Shown: in pieces, positions 4,317 to 28,271 of the stretch | How the letters are laid out: every line of letters starts with the position of its first letter | Numbering within the stretch: the first letter of the stretch is position 1 | Source: Escherichia phage vB_EcoM_G8 | Strand: one strand, 5' to 3' | Sequence record: NC_054915.1 | DNA length: 64,000 nucleotides | The notes under the pieces: model-generated | What the model was told of the DNA's origin: nothing | Seen by the model: the letters and a program-made list of their open reading frames with translations, nothing else | Databases searched by the model: none | Program-made: the position numbers and the translations under genes

Positions 4317-4334
4317 AAAGGCCCGAAGGCCTTT
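4317..4334 (-). promoter_or_regulatory. C(UUCG)G tetraloop stem-loop (6-7 bp stem) between lipoprotein gene and gene 39
   Basis: plus strand aaggcc-cgaa-ggcctt; followed on minus strand by ttggagTATAAT -10-like element. Confidence 0.55.
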
Positions 4335-4603
4335 TATTTAAAACGAATAGTCGAATCCTTGAAGAATAGTCCAGAACATACTGTTCCTTCTACTTTCTGC
4401 CCAGTAGGTCCAATAGCACGAAATCCAGTATGCTGGAAATCATTTTCAGAGCAACCGAACCAATTATATCCAGTGATTTCAATATTAGTAAAACCACTTG
4501 AAGACAAAACTTTGGTTGCATTATCAGCATCAGTACATCCTATTAAAGACACTGCTAATACTAATGCTGCAATAGAACGATTAATATATTTCATAATTTT
4601 CAC
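4334..4603 (-). CDS. putative lipoprotein (signal peptide + lipobox LIGC)
   Basis: 89-aa ORF; N-terminal hydrophobic segment ending in LIGC. Confidence 0.6.
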   Translation of the reverse strand: MKIMKYINRSIAALVLAVSLIGCTDADNATKVLSSSGFTNIEITGYNWFGCSENDFQHTGFRAIGPTGQKVEGTVCSGLFFKDSTIRFK

Positions 4604-18261: not shown

Positions 18262-18888
18262 TTAACCTCTATTCATAAAAGCATTAAAAATTTGGTCATC
18301 AATAGAAACATTTACTTTAGACTGTTTTTCGGATGGTAATTCATATCCACATATTACAATTTTGTGATCAATATCAAAATACACAGAAGCAATATGATTA
18401 ATGCTGTTTTCAGTAAAGTCTAAATCAACATCAATATCTTTTTGACCAAAGCCCAAAGGATAAATAATGCGAGTAATTCGATTATCTTTAACAAAGATTC
18501 CACCGACATACTCTGTACTGCGTTTAAAGTCTACACGCCGACGAAATGAAAAATATTCAGGCTCTTTATGAGCTCGGCTCATAGGGCACAACGAATAACT
18601 AGAATAAGAGATGTCAAATCCTACGCCTTCAATATGAACTAAATTGTCATGATTAAACCAATTATAATCATATGCCAAGTCCATTAGATTGTCATATGTG
18701 AAAGGCACCGGATTAACATCATTGGTCACAAGCATATAATTAGCAACTGCTATAATTTCATTATTTTTAACGAATACAAACCGTGATTGATGCGAATGGC
18801 CTGGACCTGCGTTTTCACGATTAATGATATAACACTGGGCACCTTTATATTTGTACGTGTCTTTACACTTGTGCATTTGATAAAACAT
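18262..18888 (-). CDS. gp61.2-like protein (reported anti-DarT factor AdfA homolog in T-even phages)
   Basis: 208-aa ORF in T4 61.2 position; function assignment from literature recall only. Confidence 0.6.
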   Translation of the reverse strand: MFYQMHKCKDTYKYKGAQCYIINRENAGPGHSHQSRFVFVKNNEIIAVANYMLVTNDVNPVPFTYDNLMDLAYDYNWFNHDNLVHIEGVGFDISYSSYSLCPMSRAHKEPEYFSFRRRVDFKRSTEYVGGIFVKDNRITRIIYPLGFGQKDIDVDLDFTENSINHIASVYFDIDHKIVICGYELPSEKQSKVNVSIDDQIFNAFMNRG

Positions 18889-19181
18889 TATTCACCTACC
18901 ACTTCAGCAATGATATTTTTGTTATTAAAGTTTTTATCGCAATACAGAACATAATTATACTGCATTACACCACCAGACTTAAGCTGTTTTTGCACTTCAG
19001 CTTTCATTTCAGGACGATCGCGCTCAACGATATTCATAATATCTGCTTCAATTTGGGTTTCAACCTCAGTCTGATCAGCAGTCATAGACCATTCGCACAA
19101 ATCTTTATCATAACCTGCCATAGCAGGCTGAGCAGCACAAGAAGCTAAAGCAAAAATTGTAGCAAAGATAAATTTTTTCAT
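18888..19181 (-). CDS. sp: Spackle periplasmic protein (superinfection exclusion, gp5 lysozyme inhibitor)
   Basis: 97-aa ORF with signal peptide, T4 Sp length and position. Confidence 0.8.
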   Translation of the reverse strand: MKKFIFATIFALASCAAQPAMAGYDKDLCEWSMTADQTEVETQIEADIMNIVERDRPEMKAEVQKQLKSGGVMQYNYVLYCDKNFNNKNIIAEVVGE

Positions 19182-22774: not shown

Positions 22775-23623
22775 TTAATCAACTGCTATTGGATGAATAG
22801 CATTAAACTTATGAAATGCTTCTGATTTTTCTTTACGCGAAACACACATGCGAAGAACCTTTAATGGCTCGTCTTCTTCACCCAACGATTTTCGTTTTTC
22901 AATATTCGATGTTTTCCAACGAGCTTGCTCTGGAAACTCTCTATTAATCTGCTCAAGCGCTCTATTATGTTTAGAATTACTACGAATTGAACTGCACCCG
23001 CCAGGAGCTTGTGCTTTTCCAGATACAACTAGATATTTGAACAAGGCCAAATGCGGATAACCTTGATTAATTAAATTGAGAAATGCATACATATCTTCGC
23101 ATAAATCAATTTTTCCATACCCAATTTGTTCTGTCGTAAGTTTTCCGAGGTCATACCACGTATTCGTGAATCCATATGAGTTTTCACGATAATTACCCCA
23201 AGATGAAGTAATTTTAAAAATTGGTAGACGAGCATGGCCATGATAATACCCGCAATCCATGGCATCCTCAACGTATTGAATCAATTCATAGAACTGTTCA
23301 CGAGTTAATTGATTAATTTTATCTACGCGCCGTTTATCGTCTCTCTTTCGTATTGAACTCATACGAATAGTAGTATCATCATCAATCATCCAGATTCGTT
23401 GACCTGCATACATATCAGTAATTGCTTTACGAGTACCGGCAATTCCATTAACATCATCAGGAATAGCTATAATTTTAGCTCTAGACCCATAAGCATCATA
23501 ATAAGCTTTTTCTTCATGTTCACGCACTACAATATGGGGTTCATAATCAGTCGGAAACATATTAAGGGCAGAAACTGCCCCGACGCGCTGATAACTTGGA
23601 ATTACGAATTGAATCATTTCCAC
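22775..23623 (-). CDS. GT-A fold glycosyltransferase at the beta-gt locus (candidate T2/T6-type beta-glucosyl-HMC-alpha-glucosyltransferase)
   Basis: 282-aa ORF; VIPSYQR and DDD (DxD) motifs; sits between uvsX and gene 42 where T4 has 351-aa beta-gt. Confidence 0.65.
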   Translation of the reverse strand: MEMIQFVIPSYQRVGAVSALNMFPTDYEPHIVVREHEEKAYYDAYGSRAKIIAIPDDVNGIAGTRKAITDMYAGQRIWMIDDDTTIRMSSIRKRDDKRRVDKINQLTREQFYELIQYVEDAMDCGYYHGHARLPIFKITSSWGNYRENSYGFTNTWYDLGKLTTEQIGYGKIDLCEDMYAFLNLINQGYPHLALFKYLVVSGKAQAPGGCSSIRSNSKHNRALEQINREFPEQARWKTSNIEKRKSLGEEDEPLKVLRMCVSRKEKSEAFHKFNAIHPIAVD

Positions 23624-24354
23624 TCACCGTTATAATCTTTTTTCACAATATGAGTTTCGCCAGTATTCCACCAATGATCAACCAAGTAAAAATGACGAGA
23701 ATATACATGAAGACTTCCAACATTCCATATAATAGAACCTGCTTTATACTGACGAGTTGAATCGCCGGCATTCAAATCAGATACTAATTTATCTAATACG
23801 TATTTTTGCCATGCATAATCATTACGGAATCCGAAGACCACGTCATTTGAGCGCATGCTTACTACTGCATTGACTTTCTTATCACGAATCAGATACTGTA
23901 CTGTATTAGTACACATGAAATCTGACATGCCATCTTTATTATAGTCAAACTGCATAGATGGACGAGTATAAATCATGATACCACGTCGAGAATCAGGATT
24001 TTGACCAAGTTCAGCTAAACACATATCATACTGGGCATAGTTATCTTCTGACCAGATAGCCCAACCATAATTCGAGTTAATTTCGCCTTTAGAAGATGCT
24101 ACTTGCTGCCAAATCTTCGGTGTTTCACCCGGAATATCTTTAACGAACAAGCTCTTAGATTTATACCATTCAAGTTCACGCTGAATGTATTCATCATTAA
24201 GAGCGCCAAAAATAAACGGTTCATCTGCTACAAATGATGCGCCAATAATTTCAATAGTTTTAACACCAGTTTTATCAACTACGAAATCTTTTTCCTTTAA
24301 TGCAGTTCCCAAATGAAGACGGATTTCTTCAACTGTCATAGAGTCACTAATCAT
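23614..24354 (-). CDS. 42: dCMP hydroxymethylase gp42
   Basis: 246-aa ORF; thymidylate-synthase-like fold motifs; T4 gp42 length. Confidence 0.93.
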   Translation of the reverse strand: MISDSMTVEEIRLHLGTALKEKDFVVDKTGVKTIEIIGASFVADEPFIFGALNDEYIQRELEWYKSKSLFVKDIPGETPKIWQQVASSKGEINSNYGWAIWSEDNYAQYDMCLAELGQNPDSRRGIMIYTRPSMQFDYNKDGMSDFMCTNTVQYLIRDKKVNAVVSMRSNDVVFGFRNDYAWQKYVLDKLVSDLNAGDSTRQYKAGSIIWNVGSLHVYSRHFYLVDHWWNTGETHIVKKDYNGEWK

Positions 24355-24507
24355 TTAAACCTCAATTGATATATTCATATTTAACTTGTAACAGTAATAA
24401 ACCCCAACCTAAAATAATAGTTGGAATCATAAGAGGAACCGTTACACTATAGTATATACTTATTATAATCATCAAGATTAAAAGCAATGCTGCTATAATT
24501 TTGCTTT

Positions 24508-24759
24508 TCATTCCTTCTCTCTGATGATAATTACCTGATTTGGCTGCGCAGACTTTTTAGTTTCACCTGCAATTGACCAAATAAATGTAATAAACCAACC
24601 AATAATTGACCAGTTAAACAGTAAAGACGTGAAAAAGATTCCTACTGTCGATTTTGACCCACGCATCAAGGCGATAAACCATGGAAGCATGTATATAATA
24701 ATAGCCAACACACCTGAAACTAAAACCATAAAAATTGAACCTGCTACTAAAGTTTCCAT
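24508..24759 (-). CDS. imm: Imm superinfection immunity membrane protein
   Basis: 83-aa ORF with two TM segments, T4 Imm length/position. Confidence 0.85.
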   Translation of the reverse strand: METLVAGSIFMVLVSGVLAIIIYMLPWFIALMRGSKSTVGIFFTSLLFNWSIIGWFITFIWSIAGETKKSAQPNQVIIIREKE

Positions 24760-24766
24760 GTTTTCC

Positions 24767-25147
24767 TCACTTAGTCAAATTTTTTACACATGAATTATAA
24801 GAATTCACTACATACTCCATCGGAGCATTTTTACCGGTACGCCATTGGTAATTATTAGCCCAATTAGCCCAAATTTCGGCGCAGTAGTTTTCAATTTTTT
24901 CTTCGCGTGTAATTACATCCGAATTACGATATGCTTGAGCAGATTCATCTGGACGAATAGCTTCGTCAAAATTCGCCTGCATTTGTTCGACTGTTTGCTT
25001 TGGAGCTTCTTTATAACACTTGACATTAGGATTATAAAATTTGCTTGAACAGTTTACAATTTTTCCTACATTAGACTGATTTACTACCGGTCCTTGAGCT
25101 ACACAACCAGTAAGACCTAATGCAATAACCAAAATAGCGATTTTCAT
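24767..25147 (-). CDS. putative lipoprotein (signal peptide + lipobox LTGC)
   Basis: 126-aa ORF. Confidence 0.6.
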   Translation of the reverse strand: MKIAILVIALGLTGCVAQGPVVNQSNVGKIVNCSSKFYNPNVKCYKEAPKQTVEQMQANFDEAIRPDESAQAYRNSDVITREEKIENYCAEIWANWANNYQWRTGKNAPMEYVVNSYNSCVKNLTK

Positions 25148-25157
25148 AATAATTTCC

Positions 25158-25406
25158 TCAAATGCAAGTAGTAATTACTCCAGTAGTGCTTATGCAGGTA
25201 TTACCTAATTGAACACCCAGCGTTCCATTAGTATTCATATGAAGATTATCATCAATTTTTGTTGATACTTTACCATTCATGTGAATAACAGTATTAGATT
25301 CAATCACATTCTGAGTATCATTTTCAATATCAATAAATGGAACAGCTGCTAATGCAACTAAACAAACTGCTAAGCATCCCATAACAATTTTCATTTTATT
25401 CTCCAA
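25158..25406 (-). CDS. small secreted protein (signal peptide); true start probably M5 MKIVMG
   Basis: 82-aa track ORF; GGAG RBS lies inside first codons; downstream of early promoter. Confidence 0.55.
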   Translation of the reverse strand: MENKMKIVMGCLAVCLVALAAVPFIDIENDTQNVIESNTVIHMNGKVSTKIDDNLHMNTNGTLGVQLGNTCISTTGVITTCI

Positions 25407-25428
25407 ATCCGTATTAGTTGATAGTTGT

Positions 25429-25458
25429 ATAGTACCATAGAAGAACAGGGATGTAAAC
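25429..25458 (-). promoter_or_regulatory. T4-type early promoter within repeated promoter cassette
   Basis: plus strand gttgatagttgtatagtaccat...gtaaac. Confidence 0.65.
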
Positions 25459-25545
25459 AGTTTTGTGAAAAATTTTTAGGGAATCCAAAGGGTCCAGAAT
25501 CATCTCTTTTTCATAAGTATAGATTTATATTACTTGTATGAAAAA

Positions 25546-25561
25546 GGGACCTGGAGGTCCC
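25546..25561 (-). terminator. intrinsic terminator downstream of gene 43 (GC stem gggacc/ggtccc followed by U5 on minus strand)
   Basis: plus strand aaaaa-gggacc-tgga-ggtccc. Confidence 0.6.
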
Positions 25562-25574
25562 TAGATTTATTCTA

Positions 25575-28271
25575 TCAGCCAAACAGGAAGTCTAACGAAG
25601 CTTTTTCTTCATAGTCCATGCCAGCCGATTCACACATACCCGCAAGCGGTTTAACAAACGATTTTTGGAACAAAGTTGAGTGGTCAATCCAAGATAGTAC
25701 ATCAGAACGAATTTCTTTTGGAAGTTCTGTACCCGACGGCCAAGCAATGCACTTGTCACCAAATGGATTTCCTTCACGTAATGGAAGAACCATTACTTTA
25801 TTTCCATCCAAAATTGGAGCTACACCCAGACCACTAACAGCTCGACGATAAGTTAGCACCCCACGAATGTGGAACGGGCATTTAAATCCTGGCCAACCTT
25901 TATCATCATATTTCGCTATATCGTTCGCAGTTTTTACTTCAGCAATAACTTTATAGTCAAGTTGACGATATTCTTTCTCGAAGTTCTTGTAATATTCTTG
26001 GACAGACTCTTCACCTTCCTGAAGAATACGACGAATACTTTCTTCGAGAGCTTCTTGCACTGCTTTTGGTGTTGAACTCTGCTGAGTTTCCATACCCATG
26101 ATTTTTAGATGCGGTTCAGCAAATCGTTTATCTTCCATATCATAAACGTTCAGAGCATAACGCTTTTTCGCTTTCCAAAATCCACCTACGCCCTTTGAAC
26201 CAAGCGGAGGGCAAGAAATAGCTTCACGGTCCATATGCATCAGATGCTCGCGGTTATTCATATAATCACATAACTCACGATATGCAACATCAATCATAGG
26301 TTCCATCTTTTTCTTACCGAACTGATTCATGAATTCAACTAAATCGTTCTGCTCTTTGAATCGGTCAAGACCAACTTTTTCAATAACTTTATCTACGCAA
26401 ACATATACCGAATCAGTATCACCTGCTGCGATGAAATCTTCACCGTTAGTTCCGCATACTTTATTCAGATATTCATTAATTTTACGAGCAATCCACTGAA
26501 TACCGACTTGACCAAAAATTGTGATAGCAGTAGCATTTCGCAAATCATAGTAACGGAAATGAATATTACCAAGAGCACCATAAAGACTGTTAATAAGAAT
26601 TTTACGGTTCAGCTGATTTGTGTTAGCAAGTGTAGCTGCTTTTTCACATTCCTCAATCAGACTATTGAGAACAGATTCAGTATAATTCGATAGTTCATTT
26701 AAGAAATCATCACTGAACTTAACATATCGTTCAACTTCTGGTTTAGTTGAACAAGACCCTGCGCCTTTCATAATAATCTTTTTAATAGCTTCGGCATTCA
26801 TTTCTTCAGCGAACATTTTCTTTTTCCAGTCTTTACGCTGGAAAAATACTTTAGCAATTTCCTTTGGAATGATACCTTCTTGATGCTTATCATACATCCA
26901 TCCATTCGGAGAACAAGAATATTCATCACTCGGTTTAGGAGCTGTTCCTGCGATATATTCATGAATTGGATGAACTTTAAACTGACCACGAATAGTTTCA
27001 GGACTAATGTTAACCTGGCGAATAATGCTCGGATACAGAGAAGTCAAGTCAAAACTCATAATGTATCGACGAGCAATTGGCTTAGGTTCAAACACAAATG
27101 CACCCGGAAAACTCTGTTTAACATGCGAACCTTGTTGAGGAATAACCTTATGTTCACCTTTCAATGAGTTAAAAATAATAGCATCCCAAGTTTTAATAGG
27201 ACTCATTACACCAGAAAAAGGCATTTTAGCATAATAAGACATACTTAAAACTAGATCGATAAACCCGCGAATTTTATCAATTGCTTGAACTGATTCTACG
27301 TCAATGATGTTATAACTAATGTATCGTTGATGATTAGTCTCACGAAGTTTATTAATAGGACCGTCGTATGGTAATTTACCTTTTTTGGTTTCATGTTGAG
27401 CAACTGATTCCAAAGAGAATGACGGCAAATTAGTAAAAGCGAATTTCTTGTACAAATCTAAATAATCAAGAATAGATACGCCATCAATAGAATAAATTTC
27501 TTTGCTACCGTACATATTTTGAATTAGTTTAGATTTTACCCGACCGATTGGAGAGAAACGTTTCATACTGCGTTCGCCCAGAATCATTTTAACACGATTC
27601 ATGATATACGGAACGTCAAACCCCTCAATATTCCAACCAGTAAAAATAGCAGGTCGTTTCTGTTCCCAGAGATTGATATATTCCATGAGCATATCACGCT
27701 CATTATCGAATGGCATATAAATTACTCGGTCAAGAATTTCTTGAGGAACTTCATCACCACCTTCACAGTCAAGCTTAGCAGCTAACTTTGCATCCCATTT
27801 TGATACTGAACCATACATTGAATTCAAAAGGTCGAAAACATAAAAACGATCGTCAATTGAATCGTAATGAGTGATAGCATCAATTTCATATTCAGCTTTC
27901 ATTGGGTCAGGAAATTTATCACCAGTAACCTCAATGTCACAGTTAGCTACACGAACAAATTTTCGGTCATAAACAATTTCTGAACCATACGTATCACTGA
28001 TATAAGCGAGTTTAAAATCGTTCATACCGAGAGCTTCGAGACCGATGTCTTCCATTCGCTTCATCCAATCTCGAGCATCTTTCATTGATGGAAATTTTTG
28101 AGGAGCGCAATTTTTACCATAAATGTCTTTGTATTTTGACTCTTCCTTACAATGCCTAAACATAGTTGGAAGATATTCTACTTCACGAGTACGTTCCTTT
28201 CCGTTTTCATCAATATAACGTTCAACAATGTTATTTCCGACTGTTTCGATAGAGATATAAAATTCTTTCAT
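25575..28271 (-). CDS. 43: DNA polymerase gp43 (family B)
   Basis: 898-aa ORF, T4 gp43 length; exonuclease and polymerase motifs (DTDS, YGG). Confidence 0.97.
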   Translation of the reverse strand: MKEFYISIETVGNNIVERYIDENGKERTREVEYLPTMFRHCKEESKYKDIYGKNCAPQKFPSMKDARDWMKRMEDIGLEALGMNDFKLAYISDTYGSEIVYDRKFVRVANCDIEVTGDKFPDPMKAEYEIDAITHYDSIDDRFYVFDLLNSMYGSVSKWDAKLAAKLDCEGGDEVPQEILDRVIYMPFDNERDMLMEYINLWEQKRPAIFTGWNIEGFDVPYIMNRVKMILGERSMKRFSPIGRVKSKLIQNMYGSKEIYSIDGVSILDYLDLYKKFAFTNLPSFSLESVAQHETKKGKLPYDGPINKLRETNHQRYISYNIIDVESVQAIDKIRGFIDLVLSMSYYAKMPFSGVMSPIKTWDAIIFNSLKGEHKVIPQQGSHVKQSFPGAFVFEPKPIARRYIMSFDLTSLYPSIIRQVNISPETIRGQFKVHPIHEYIAGTAPKPSDEYSCSPNGWMYDKHQEGIIPKEIAKVFFQRKDWKKKMFAEEMNAEAIKKIIMKGAGSCSTKPEVERYVKFSDDFLNELSNYTESVLNSLIEECEKAATLANTNQLNRKILINSLYGALGNIHFRYYDLRNATAITIFGQVGIQWIARKINEYLNKVCGTNGEDFIAAGDTDSVYVCVDKVIEKVGLDRFKEQNDLVEFMNQFGKKKMEPMIDVAYRELCDYMNNREHLMHMDREAISCPPLGSKGVGGFWKAKKRYALNVYDMEDKRFAEPHLKIMGMETQQSSTPKAVQEALEESIRRILQEGEESVQEYYKNFEKEYRQLDYKVIAEVKTANDIAKYDDKGWPGFKCPFHIRGVLTYRRAVSGLGVAPILDGNKVMVLPLREGNPFGDKCIAWPSGTELPKEIRSDVLSWIDHSTLFQKSFVKPLAGMCESAGMDYEEKASLDFLFG

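What the first reader, a model, noticed from the sequence alone, without database searches (positions are those of the whole stretch)
24767..25406. Lipoprotein plus small secreted protein directly downstream of imm
Two envelope-targeted ORFs (126-aa lipoprotein with LTGC lipobox; about 78-aa signal-peptide protein) sit next to the superinfection-immunity gene and are bounded by a promoter/terminator cassette. They are candidates for superinfection exclusion, receptor masking or periplasmic host modulation. I do not recall equivalents in T4.
Basis: inference. Interest (0 to 1): 0.5.

Follow-up and report, generated by a model that had tools for sequence, protein, structure and literature searches.

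The report
T4 imm.1 lipoprotein plus variable neighbour
Both ORFs are real early phage genes: one is the known but uncharacterised T4 gene imm.1, a lipoprotein that sits next to the superinfection-immunity gene imm in every T4-type locus sampled; the other is a small exported protein in a slot that T4 leaves empty. The find is largely ordinary, but it points to an untested partner for Imm.

Summary
The window is a Tequatrovirus (T4-like) genome. On the minus strand the order is gene 43, terminator, early promoter, 78-aa ORF, 126-aa ORF, imm, 49-aa ORF, gene 42. Both ORFs lie upstream of imm, not downstream.

The 126-aa ORF is T4 imm.1 (122/125 identical; Pfam DUF5481; PHROG 1754). It has a full PROSITE-type lipobox (Cys15), no Asp at +2, and two invariant C-terminal cysteines. 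In T4 it is made early and is non-essential. Its function is untested.

New here: in all 23 T4-like IMG/VR loci that carry imm, a PHROG-1754 lipoprotein lies immediately beside imm. It is upstream in some genera and downstream in others, and the pair sits in at least three genomic contexts. None of 18 non-T4-like imm loci has one. I infer that Imm.1 is a periplasmic partner of Imm (about 0.45).

The 78-aa ORF is absent from T4 through a 247-bp indel at a repeated ATGAAAAT. About 320 Tequatrovirus records have it, and T2 carries an unrelated ORF in the same slot. It encodes a hydrophobic N-terminus plus a beta-rich, two-cysteine domain with no known fold. It looks like an exchangeable early accessory gene.

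The parts
25545..25562 (-). Intrinsic terminator hairpin (AGGGACCTCCAGGTCCCT + TTTTC) just after the gene 43 stop codon
   Evidence: The same sequence occurs in T4 and is annotated as a terminator in fPS-90.
25429..25457 (-). T4 early-type promoter: GTTTACA -35, 17-nt spacer, TG-extended TACTAT -10
   Evidence: Conserved in T4 and annotated as 'predicted early promoter' in fPS-90. T4 imm.1 is classed as early RNA and early protein (PMC9697503 supplement).
25158..25394 (-). 78-aa ORF (PHROG 4189). It has an N-terminal hydrophobic signal peptide or signal anchor, then a ~47-residue beta-rich domain with two conserved C-terminal cysteines. It occupies a polymorphic slot that is empty in T4.
24767..25147 (-). 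imm.1: 126-aa lipoprotein precursor (DUF5481, PHROG 1754) with lipobox LTGC (Cys15), Val at +2, invariant Cys89/Cys120, and Cys33/Cys44 that are present or absent together
24508..24759 (-). imm: 83-aa superinfection-immunity inner-membrane protein (PF14373). It is the conserved neighbour of imm.1.
   Evidence: Imm binds the T4 tape-measure protein gp29 (bioRxiv 10.64898/2026.03.06.709160).
24362..24511 (-). 49-aa very hydrophobic ORF (PHROG 3610). Its ATG overlaps the imm stop codon (ATGA). It is the last small envelope gene before gene 42.
   Evidence: The sequence is present in T4 DNA but is not annotated there.

Best explanation
SHOWN. The region is the start of an early transcription unit in a T4-like phage: terminator of gene 43, early promoter, 78-aa ORF, imm.1, imm, 49-aa ORF, gene 42. 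The 126-aa ORF is the orthologue of T4 imm.1. It carries a canonical lipobox.

INFERRED. Imm.1 is exported by Sec, lipid-modified at Cys15 and, lacking Asp at +2, sorted by Lol to the inner leaflet of the outer membrane. There it exposes a roughly 110-residue, disulfide-stapled, largely helical domain in the periplasm. Because this lipoprotein stays immediately adjacent to imm wherever imm occurs in the T4-type phages sampled, I propose that it is the periplasmic arm of the Imm superinfection-immunity module. Imm in the inner membrane blocks the incoming tape-measure protein. Imm.1 acts one step earlier or alongside, either by engaging the incoming tail tip or tape-measure protein in the periplasm, or by positioning or stabilising Imm at injection sites.

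The 78-aa ORF is a separate, exchangeable early accessory gene. It sits in the slot behind the promoter and encodes a membrane-anchored or secreted beta-rich mini-protein of unknown target. It is not an obligatory part of the module.
For: IDENTITY
- 122/125 identical to T4 Imm.1.
- DUF5481 E=1.3e-70, above the Pfam cut-off; PHROG 1754 E=1e-43.
- Gene order matches T4.

LIPOPROTEIN
- The PS51257 rule is met.
- Leu-x-Gly-Cys is kept in 12 of 13 family members that are otherwise only 15-44% identical. None has Asp at +2. Cys89 and Cys120 are invariant. Their spacing varies through insertions between them, which fits two helices around a loop. Cys33 and Cys44 are present or absent together.
- AlphaFold2 gives a confident C-terminal helical hairpin (residues 81-125, pLDDT about 90).

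EXPRESSION
- T4 imm.1 is classed as early RNA and early protein.
- It is non-essential, like imm (31/31 and 20/20 TA sites hit).

LINKAGE TO imm
- Context 43-imm.1-imm-42 in Tequatrovirus, two divergent metagenomic lineages and Klebsiella phage Roth66; Serratia phage Muldoon has 43, three other ORFs, imm.1, imm, two more ORFs and the dCMP hydroxymethylase gene.
- Context 61.4-imm.1-imm-sp in Mosigvirus.
- Context frd.3-imm.1-imm.
- Context 43-imm-imm.1, with the order inverted, in Gaprivervirus and Dhakavirus.
- All these neighbours match PHROG 1754 over essentially its full length, E from 1.9e-15 to 4e-52.
- In a scan of IMG/VR, 23 of 23 T4-like imm loci have the lipoprotein within 8-151 bp on the same strand. 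None of 18 non-T4-like imm loci has one.
- Record counts match almost one to one: 500 vs 500 in Tequatrovirus, 155 vs 156 in Mosigvirus, 52 vs 54 for the Dhakavirus type.

SMALL ORF
- Absent from T4, with the T4 junction lying exactly at a repeated ATGAAAAT.
- An unrelated ORF fills the slot in T2.
- Its Dhakavirus homologue lies in another locus.
- Purifying selection.
- Beta-rich domain with pLDDT about 85.
Against: - No experiment links Imm.1 to exclusion.
- Imm expressed alone from a plasmid excludes T4 and binds gp29 without Imm.1, so Imm.1 is not required for the core activity.
- Imm homologues in non-T4-like phages work without any Imm.1.
- Gene order in T4-like genomes is generally conservative, so adjacency can partly reflect descent rather than function.
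- One family member (P0021) lacks the lipobox Cys.
- The lipobox pattern also hits Sp, which is regarded as a soluble periplasmic protein, so the pattern alone can mislead.
- The AlphaFold2 model is poor for residues 1-80, and no fold match gives a functional clue.
- No physical interaction could be modelled.
- For the small ORF, neither cleavage nor a target is known.
Confidence: 0.45

Rival explanations
1. Imm.1 shares an early promoter and ancestry with imm but has an unrelated envelope function, for example countering a host envelope-based defence or changing outer-membrane or peptidoglycan properties for the phage's own cycle.
For: It is non-essential and was not flagged as conditionally essential in the HIDEN-SEQ text and tables seen. 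Imm alone suffices for exclusion. T4-like gene order is conservative. No structural or sequence clue ties Imm.1 to the injection machinery.
Against: The pair stays adjacent through at least three relocations and one order inversion, while protein identity falls to about 15-20%. Co-occurrence is close to one to one. In Mosigvirus the pair lies directly beside sp, the third exclusion gene.
Confidence: 0.25
2. Imm.1 acts on its own, like Spackle. It would be a periplasmic protector against damage from secondary adsorptions (lysis from without, collapse of lysis inhibition), for example by inhibiting a tail-associated enzyme or stabilising the wall, independently of Imm.
For: Periplasmic location is inferred from the lipobox and cysteine pattern. 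It is expressed early, like sp. It clusters with sp in Mosigvirus. imm and sp mutants both affect lysis from without and lysis inhibition (review PMC6832632).
Against: No similarity to Sp or to known lysozyme inhibitors in sequence or fold. The tight linkage is to imm, not sp, in most genera.
Confidence: 0.15
3. One or both proteins mask the phage receptor from the periplasmic side, as the T5 Llp and phi80/N15 Cor lipoproteins do for FhuA. This would prevent adsorption or inactivation of progeny.
For: Imm.1 is an early, small, disulfide-containing lipoprotein predicted to be outer-membrane-sorted, as Llp is (PMC9586334 listed). The small ORF is variable between phages, as expected of a receptor-specific factor.
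Against: Imm.1 is nearly identical in T4 and T2, which use different receptors (OmpC versus OmpF/FadL, established knowledge). T-even exclusion is known to act after adsorption. There is no PHROG, Pfam or fold similarity to Cor or Llp beyond the signal peptide. The small ORF is not linked to receptor-binding genes in either context seen.
Confidence: 0.08
4. The 78-aa ORF is a decaying or selfish filler with no function of its own.
For: It is missing from T4 and from about a third of Tequatrovirus records, and T2 has a different ORF in its place. It evolves faster than its neighbours. Truncated and rearranged copies exist.
Against: dN/dS is 0.10-0.50, including 0.10-0.20 against a Dhakavirus copy at saturating dS. 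The C-terminal motif LGVQxGNTCxSTTG...TC is strictly conserved. The Shine-Dalgarno sequence is good. AlphaFold2 gives a confident beta domain.
Confidence: 0.05

Closest known systems
Bacteriophage T4 gene imm.1 (NP_049661, UniProt P18057; Pfam DUF5481; PHROG 1754)
   Same: The 126-aa ORF is this gene: 98% identical, with the same position between gene 43 and imm and the same promoter and terminator upstream.
   Different: There are 3 substitutions and one extra C-terminal residue. Here a 78-aa ORF separates it from the promoter. The family has no assigned function. RefSeq's label 'iduronate sulfatase' and other records' 'immunity' labels have no support in any search run here.
T4 Imm (PF14373) and other inner-membrane exclusion proteins that target the tape-measure protein (HK97 gp15)
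   Same: Imm is the immediate neighbour and the proposed functional partner. Both are early, non-essential and envelope-located.
   Different: Imm.1 shows no sequence relationship to Imm. It is a lipoprotein with a soluble domain, not a polytopic membrane protein.
T5 Llp and Cor (phi80, N15) receptor-blocking lipoproteins
   Same: They are small, early or lysogeny-expressed phage lipoproteins of the outer-membrane type that act in superinfection exclusion.
   Different: No sequence or fold similarity was found. Llp and Cor are receptor-specific, whereas Imm.1 is conserved across T-even phages with different receptors.
T4 Spackle (Sp, gp61.3)
   Same: It is an early exported periplasmic exclusion protein. 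It is adjacent to imm.1-imm in Mosigvirus.
   Different: It is unrelated in sequence, and its known target (gp5 lysozyme) is not implicated for either ORF here.
Two-component spanins (Rz/Rz1; T4 PseT.3/PseT.2)
   Same: The architecture is similar: adjacent genes encode an inner-membrane protein and an outer-membrane lipoprotein with periplasmic cysteines.
   Different: The function and timing differ (late lysis genes). There is no homology, and Imm has almost no periplasmic domain. This is an analogy only.

Membership tests
Imm.1 / DUF5481 / PHROG 1754 | Score above the Pfam gathering threshold for PF17578 | tested here: met
   234.7 bits against a cut-off of 27, E=1.3e-70, residues 22-124 on model positions 1-103 of 103.
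Imm.1 / DUF5481 / PHROG 1754 | Orthology to T4 imm.1: near-identity and the same genomic position | tested here: met
   122/125 identical, and located between gene 43 and imm as in NC_000866.
Imm.1 / DUF5481 / PHROG 1754 | Family hallmarks: lipobox Cys, conserved Tyr38, and two C-terminal Cys | tested here: met
   K2, G14, Y38, C89 and C120 are invariant, and C15 is present in 12 of 13 diverse members.
Bacterial-type lipoprotein precursor | PROSITE PS51257 lipobox with Cys at positions 15-35 and K/R in the first 7 residues | tested here: met
   ILVIALGLTGC, Cys15, Lys2.
Bacterial-type lipoprotein precursor | Actual lipid modification and LspA cleavage (palmitate labelling, globomycin sensitivity) | not testable with these tools
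As a caution, the same pattern also hits Sp.
Outer-membrane-sorted lipoprotein (Lol pathway, +2 rule) | No Asp at position +2 after the lipid-modified Cys | tested here: met
   The +2 residue is Val here, and Gly, Ala, Gln or Ser in the other members, never Asp. Localisation itself was not tested.
Sec signal-peptide protein (78-aa ORF) | Positively charged n-region, hydrophobic h-region, and a small-x-small cleavage site | tested here: inconclusive
   MK, a 19-residue apolar run and ALA|A / LAA|V sites are present. However, the h-region is long enough for an uncleaved anchor and is 7 residues longer in some homologues. The N-terminal Cys residues are not conserved, so it is not a lipoprotein here.
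Llp / Cor receptor-blocking lipoproteins | Sequence or fold similarity to Llp or Cor | tested here: not met
Llp / Cor receptor-blocking lipoproteins | Specificity that tracks the phage's receptor | tested here: not met
   Imm.1 of T2 and T4 differ at 3 non-synonymous sites although their receptors differ (established knowledge).
Spackle (Sp) | Sequence similarity to T4 Sp | tested here: not met
   Neither ORF has a paralogue in the window, which contains sp at 18888-19181, and the PHROGs are different.

The most novel reading that the evidence does not exclude
Imm.1 is an overlooked second component of T-even superinfection immunity. It would be an outer-membrane-tethered periplasmic protein that, together with inner-membrane Imm, forms a two-membrane trap for the incoming tail tip or tape-measure protein. 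This would account for the fast, efficient exclusion seen in infected cells. The variable 78-aa protein in front of it, with its 8-residue beta repeats, would be a strain-specific add-on that tunes which competitors are excluded.
Probability: 0.25. Interest if true: 0.65.

Novelty: already known. Interest (0 to 1): 0.35.

Why it matters
Superinfection exclusion by T4 is a classic problem. The mechanism of Imm, binding the tape-measure protein, is only now being worked out (2026 preprint), and that work does not mention imm.1.

A lipoprotein gene accompanies imm in every T4-type locus sampled, through relocations and an order inversion, down to about 15-20% protein identity. That is a concrete and cheap-to-test lead for a missing periplasmic component.

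If instead Imm.1 acts independently, it is still one of the few conserved phage-encoded lipoproteins of T-even phages without a role. The polymorphic slot in front of it is a natural insertion site for small early accessory genes. It is also a clean example of cassette loss through an 8-bp repeat.

Tried and rejected
- SEQUENCE LIBRARIES. PDB profile searches, NCBIfam and PADLOC gave nothing meaningful.
- DEEP HOMOLOGY. A search of Imm.1 against 1.8 billion representative proteins found only 6, all phage-type. No bacterial homologues turned up to borrow a function from.
- SlyB. The motif after the lipid Cys (GD[IV]VxAS[ES]VGK) resembles the SlyB N-terminus, but hhalign gives 4.6% probability. 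Rejected.
- SUBFAMILY HOMOLOGY. hhalign between Imm.1 subfamilies aligned confidently only over the N-terminus. Homology of the whole proteins was instead established through full-length PHROG 1754 matches.
- RECIPROCAL LOCUS SCAN. A scan with the full-family alignment failed because no conserved 7-10-residue stretch exists. It was replaced by record counts.
- RNA. Rfam found no RNA family in 24200-25700. Plus-strand ORFs in the region are short and have no support.
- LITERATURE. No paper in the searchable library discusses imm.1. The Lu and Henning papers on imm (1989, 1993) are not held. My recollection that they suggested a helper for Imm therefore could not be checked and is not used as evidence.
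- LIPOPROTEIN READING OF THE SMALL ORF. Rejected for the window copy. Its Cys7 and Cys11 lack a canonical lipobox and are replaced by Ser/Val in Dhakavirus. An 85-aa variant with a 7-residue duplication does create LAAC, which explains a UniRef 'Lipoprotein' label.

Full report
WHAT IS THERE

The window is a Tequatrovirus genome. The 1.3-kb region matches more than 500 T4-like phage records at 90-99% identity. All genes here are on the minus strand. In order of transcription they are:
- gene 43, DNA polymerase (28271-25575)
- a G+C-rich hairpin followed by a T run (25562-25545)
- an early-type promoter (-35 TTTACA at 25457, TG-extended -10 TACTAT ending at 25429)
- a 78-aa ORF (ATG 25394 to 25158)
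- a 126-aa ORF (25147-24767)
- imm (24759-24508)
- a 49-aa hydrophobic ORF whose ATG overlaps the imm stop codon (24511-24362)
- gene 42, dCMP hydroxymethylase (24354-23614)

The two ORFs are therefore upstream of imm, not downstream. No terminator-like site separates them from imm or gene 42, so they appear to open an operon. The ATG at 25394, which has GGAG 7-8 nt upstream, is the start annotated in relatives. Rfam finds no RNA family here, and plus-strand ORFs are short and unsupported.

ARE THE ORFS REAL?

Yes. Both match phage protein families: PHROG 1754 at E=1e-43 and PHROG 4189 at E=2e-28. Codon-level comparison with four to six other phages gives dN/dS of 0.02-0.14 (one near-identical pair 0.25) for the 126-aa ORF and 0.10-0.50 for the 78-aa ORF. 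The latter includes 0.10-0.20 against a Dhakavirus copy at saturated dS.

THE 126-AA ORF IS T4 imm.1

It is 122/125 identical to NP_049661 and lies in the same position as in NC_000866. It scores 235 bits on Pfam DUF5481, whose cut-off is 27. The statement that T4 has no equivalent is wrong for this ORF. RefSeq's product name 'iduronate sulfatase' and the 'immunity' labels in other records have no support in Pfam, NCBIfam or PADLOC.

Published data on T4 place imm.1 in the early RNA and early protein classes (PMC9697503 supplement). They also show it is dispensable: all 31 TA sites tolerate transposon insertion, as do all 20 in imm (bioRxiv 10.1101/2025.11.20.689424 supplement). No paper in the searchable library discusses its function.

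ANATOMY OF Imm.1

The N-terminus meets the full PROSITE lipoprotein rule (ILVIALGLTGC, Cys15, Lys2). Only 4 of 241 ORFs of at least 50 aa in the window do so, and one of those is Sp. Sp is regarded as soluble, so the pattern alone is not proof.

Conservation is stronger evidence. Thirteen members of the family are only 15-44% identical to the window protein. Even so, Leu12-x-Gly14-Cys15 is retained in twelve of them, Tyr38, Cys89 and Cys120 are invariant, and no member has Asp at +2. Cys33 and Cys44 are present or absent together. The spacing between the two invariant cysteines varies through insertions between them. This fits two helices around a variable loop.

THE LINKAGE TO imm: THE MAIN NEW RESULT

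In the 32 sampled T4-like loci that carry imm (23 IMG/VR, 9 others), a lipoprotein sits next to it. The arrangements seen are:
- 43-imm.1-imm-42 in Tequatrovirus, two divergent metagenomic lineages and Klebsiella phage Roth66; in Serratia phage Muldoon three other ORFs precede the pair and two follow it
- 61.4-imm.1-imm-sp in Mosigvirus, which places all three exported early proteins side by side
- frd.3-imm.1-imm-orf49 on a metagenomic contig
- 43-imm-lipoprotein-uvsX in Gaprivervirus, and the same inverted imm-lipoprotein order after gene 43 in Dhakavirus

All these neighbours carry a lipobox. Representatives of each divergent type match PHROG 1754 over essentially its whole length, with E from 1.9e-15 to 4e-52. 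They are therefore homologues of Imm.1, although direct profile-profile alignment is confident only over the N-terminal motif.

A scan of IMG/VR with an Imm alignment returned 41 loci. All 23 from T4-like contexts have the lipoprotein 8-151 bp from imm on the same strand. None of the 18 from other phage types has one.

Record counts in GenBank phages agree almost one to one:
- Tequatrovirus band: 500 records with Imm.1 and 500 with Imm
- Mosigvirus band: 155 and 156
- Dhakavirus type: 52 and 54

Imm itself is far more widespread (more than 1,200 records), so Imm can work without Imm.1. Within the T4-type phages sampled, however, the two stay together.

HOW IT MOST LIKELY WORKS

A 2026 preprint shows that Imm binds the helical-bundle domain of the tape-measure protein gp29. 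It also shows that Imm alone, expressed from a plasmid, lowers T4 plating (10.64898/2026.03.06.709160). Imm.1 is not mentioned there.

Combining that result with the anatomy and the linkage, my best-supported reading (about 0.45) is that Imm.1 is an accessory periplasmic arm of the same module. [quoted passage not shown] Alternatively, it would help place or stabilise Imm. Everything after 'lipoprotein beside imm' is inference.

The rivals are:
- An unrelated envelope function that shares only the promoter (0.25).
- An Sp-like independent protector against lysis from without (0.15).
- Receptor masking in the manner of T5 Llp or Cor (0.08). This is disfavoured because T2 and T4 Imm.1 differ at only three non-synonymous sites although the phages use different receptors, and because there is no similarity to Llp or Cor.

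THE 78-AA ORF

T4 does lack it. In T4 the leader that precedes the small ORF here runs straight into imm.1. The junction lies within ATGAAAAT, which in the window occurs at the start of both ORFs, 247 bp apart. The T4 state is most simply a deletion between these repeats.

The protein is found in 324 phage records: about 320 Tequatrovirus, roughly 64% of those with Imm.1, and four Dhakavirus. In Dhakavirus the gene lies in a different region, near nudix hydrolase, lysozyme e and denV.

T2, RB27, RB51 and about 30 other records carry an unrelated 83-aa ORF without an export signal (PHROG 18567) in the same slot. That ORF shares the right-hand boundary GAGGAAATTATTATG. The slot behind this early promoter is therefore polymorphic, and the small ORF is not tied to imm.

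The product has MK followed by a 19-residue apolar segment with ALA/AV sites. Some homologues duplicate seven residues of this segment, and the N-terminal cysteines are not conserved. It is thus a signal peptide or signal anchor, not a lipoprotein, in this phage.

The remaining roughly 47 residues are Asn/Thr/Gly-rich. They end in the strictly conserved motif LGVQxGNTCxSTTG...TC. They also show an 8-residue hydrophobic periodicity (lag-8 autocorrelation 0.34, reached by 0.3% of shuffles). AlphaFold2 predicts six short strands with pLDDT about 85. Foldseek against PDB and BFVD finds only members of its own family. Its target is unknown. I treat it as an exchangeable early accessory gene that acts at the envelope.

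VERDICT

Both genes are already catalogued, one of them in T4 itself, so the finding as written is ordinary. Its value lies in the conserved Imm.1-Imm pairing, which gives a specific and easily tested hypothesis about T-even superinfection immunity.

Noticed in passing
window 24362-24511 (-): A 49-aa, almost entirely hydrophobic ORF whose ATG overlaps the imm stop codon (ATGA). It matches PHROG 3610 (E=1.8e-23) and is annotated in teqsoen and T2. It is present but unannotated in the T4 RefSeq gap between imm and gene 42, and it also follows imm on a metagenomic contig (L007). It may be a fourth small envelope protein of the same operon.
   Followed up: partly
window 25148-25394 (-); L001 5014-5030; L012 533-900: The slot between the early promoter and imm.1 is polymorphic. 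It is empty in T4 (a 247-bp difference bounded by a repeated ATGAAAAT), holds the 78-aa exported ORF here, and holds an unrelated 83-aa ORF (PHROG 18567) in T2, RB27 and RB51 with the same right-hand boundary.
   Followed up: yes
L011 (Shigella phage CT01) 409-1246: A rearranged hybrid. A truncated imm.1 5' end is followed by the 3' part of the small ORF, which is fused in frame through a second copy of the leader to a complete imm.1 (annotated as a 179-aa CDS). It looks like recombination between repeated leaders or an assembly artefact.
   Followed up: no
window 18888-19181 (-) and L021 2813-3106: Spackle (Sp) also matches the PROSITE lipobox pattern (ALASC in the window, AVSC in Mosigvirus), although it is treated as a soluble periplasmic protein. 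Either the pattern gives a false positive or Sp processing deserves another look.
   Followed up: no
window 4334-4603 (-): A second ORF in the window with a canonical lipobox: 89 aa, ALVLAVSLIGC, Cys23. It was not identified.
   Followed up: no
window 25031-25059 (-): A sigma-70-like site (TTGTAA, 17 nt, TATAAT; 10 of 12 matches) lies inside the 5' part of imm.1. It could be an internal promoter for imm, or it could be chance.
   Followed up: no
window 22775-23623 (-): The glucosyltransferase gene after gene 42 encodes 282 aa and overlaps the end of gene 42. T4 b-gt encodes 351 aa. T4's segA homing-endonuclease gene between b-gt and uvsX is absent here.
   Followed up: no
Imm.1 family, residues 15-30 (alignment A7): The conserved motif just after the lipid-modified Cys (GD[IV]VxAS[ES]VG[KQ]) resembles the N-terminus of the E. 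coli outer-membrane lipoprotein SlyB (SGDVYTASEAKQ). Profile comparison does not support homology (hhalign 4.6%).
   Followed up: yes
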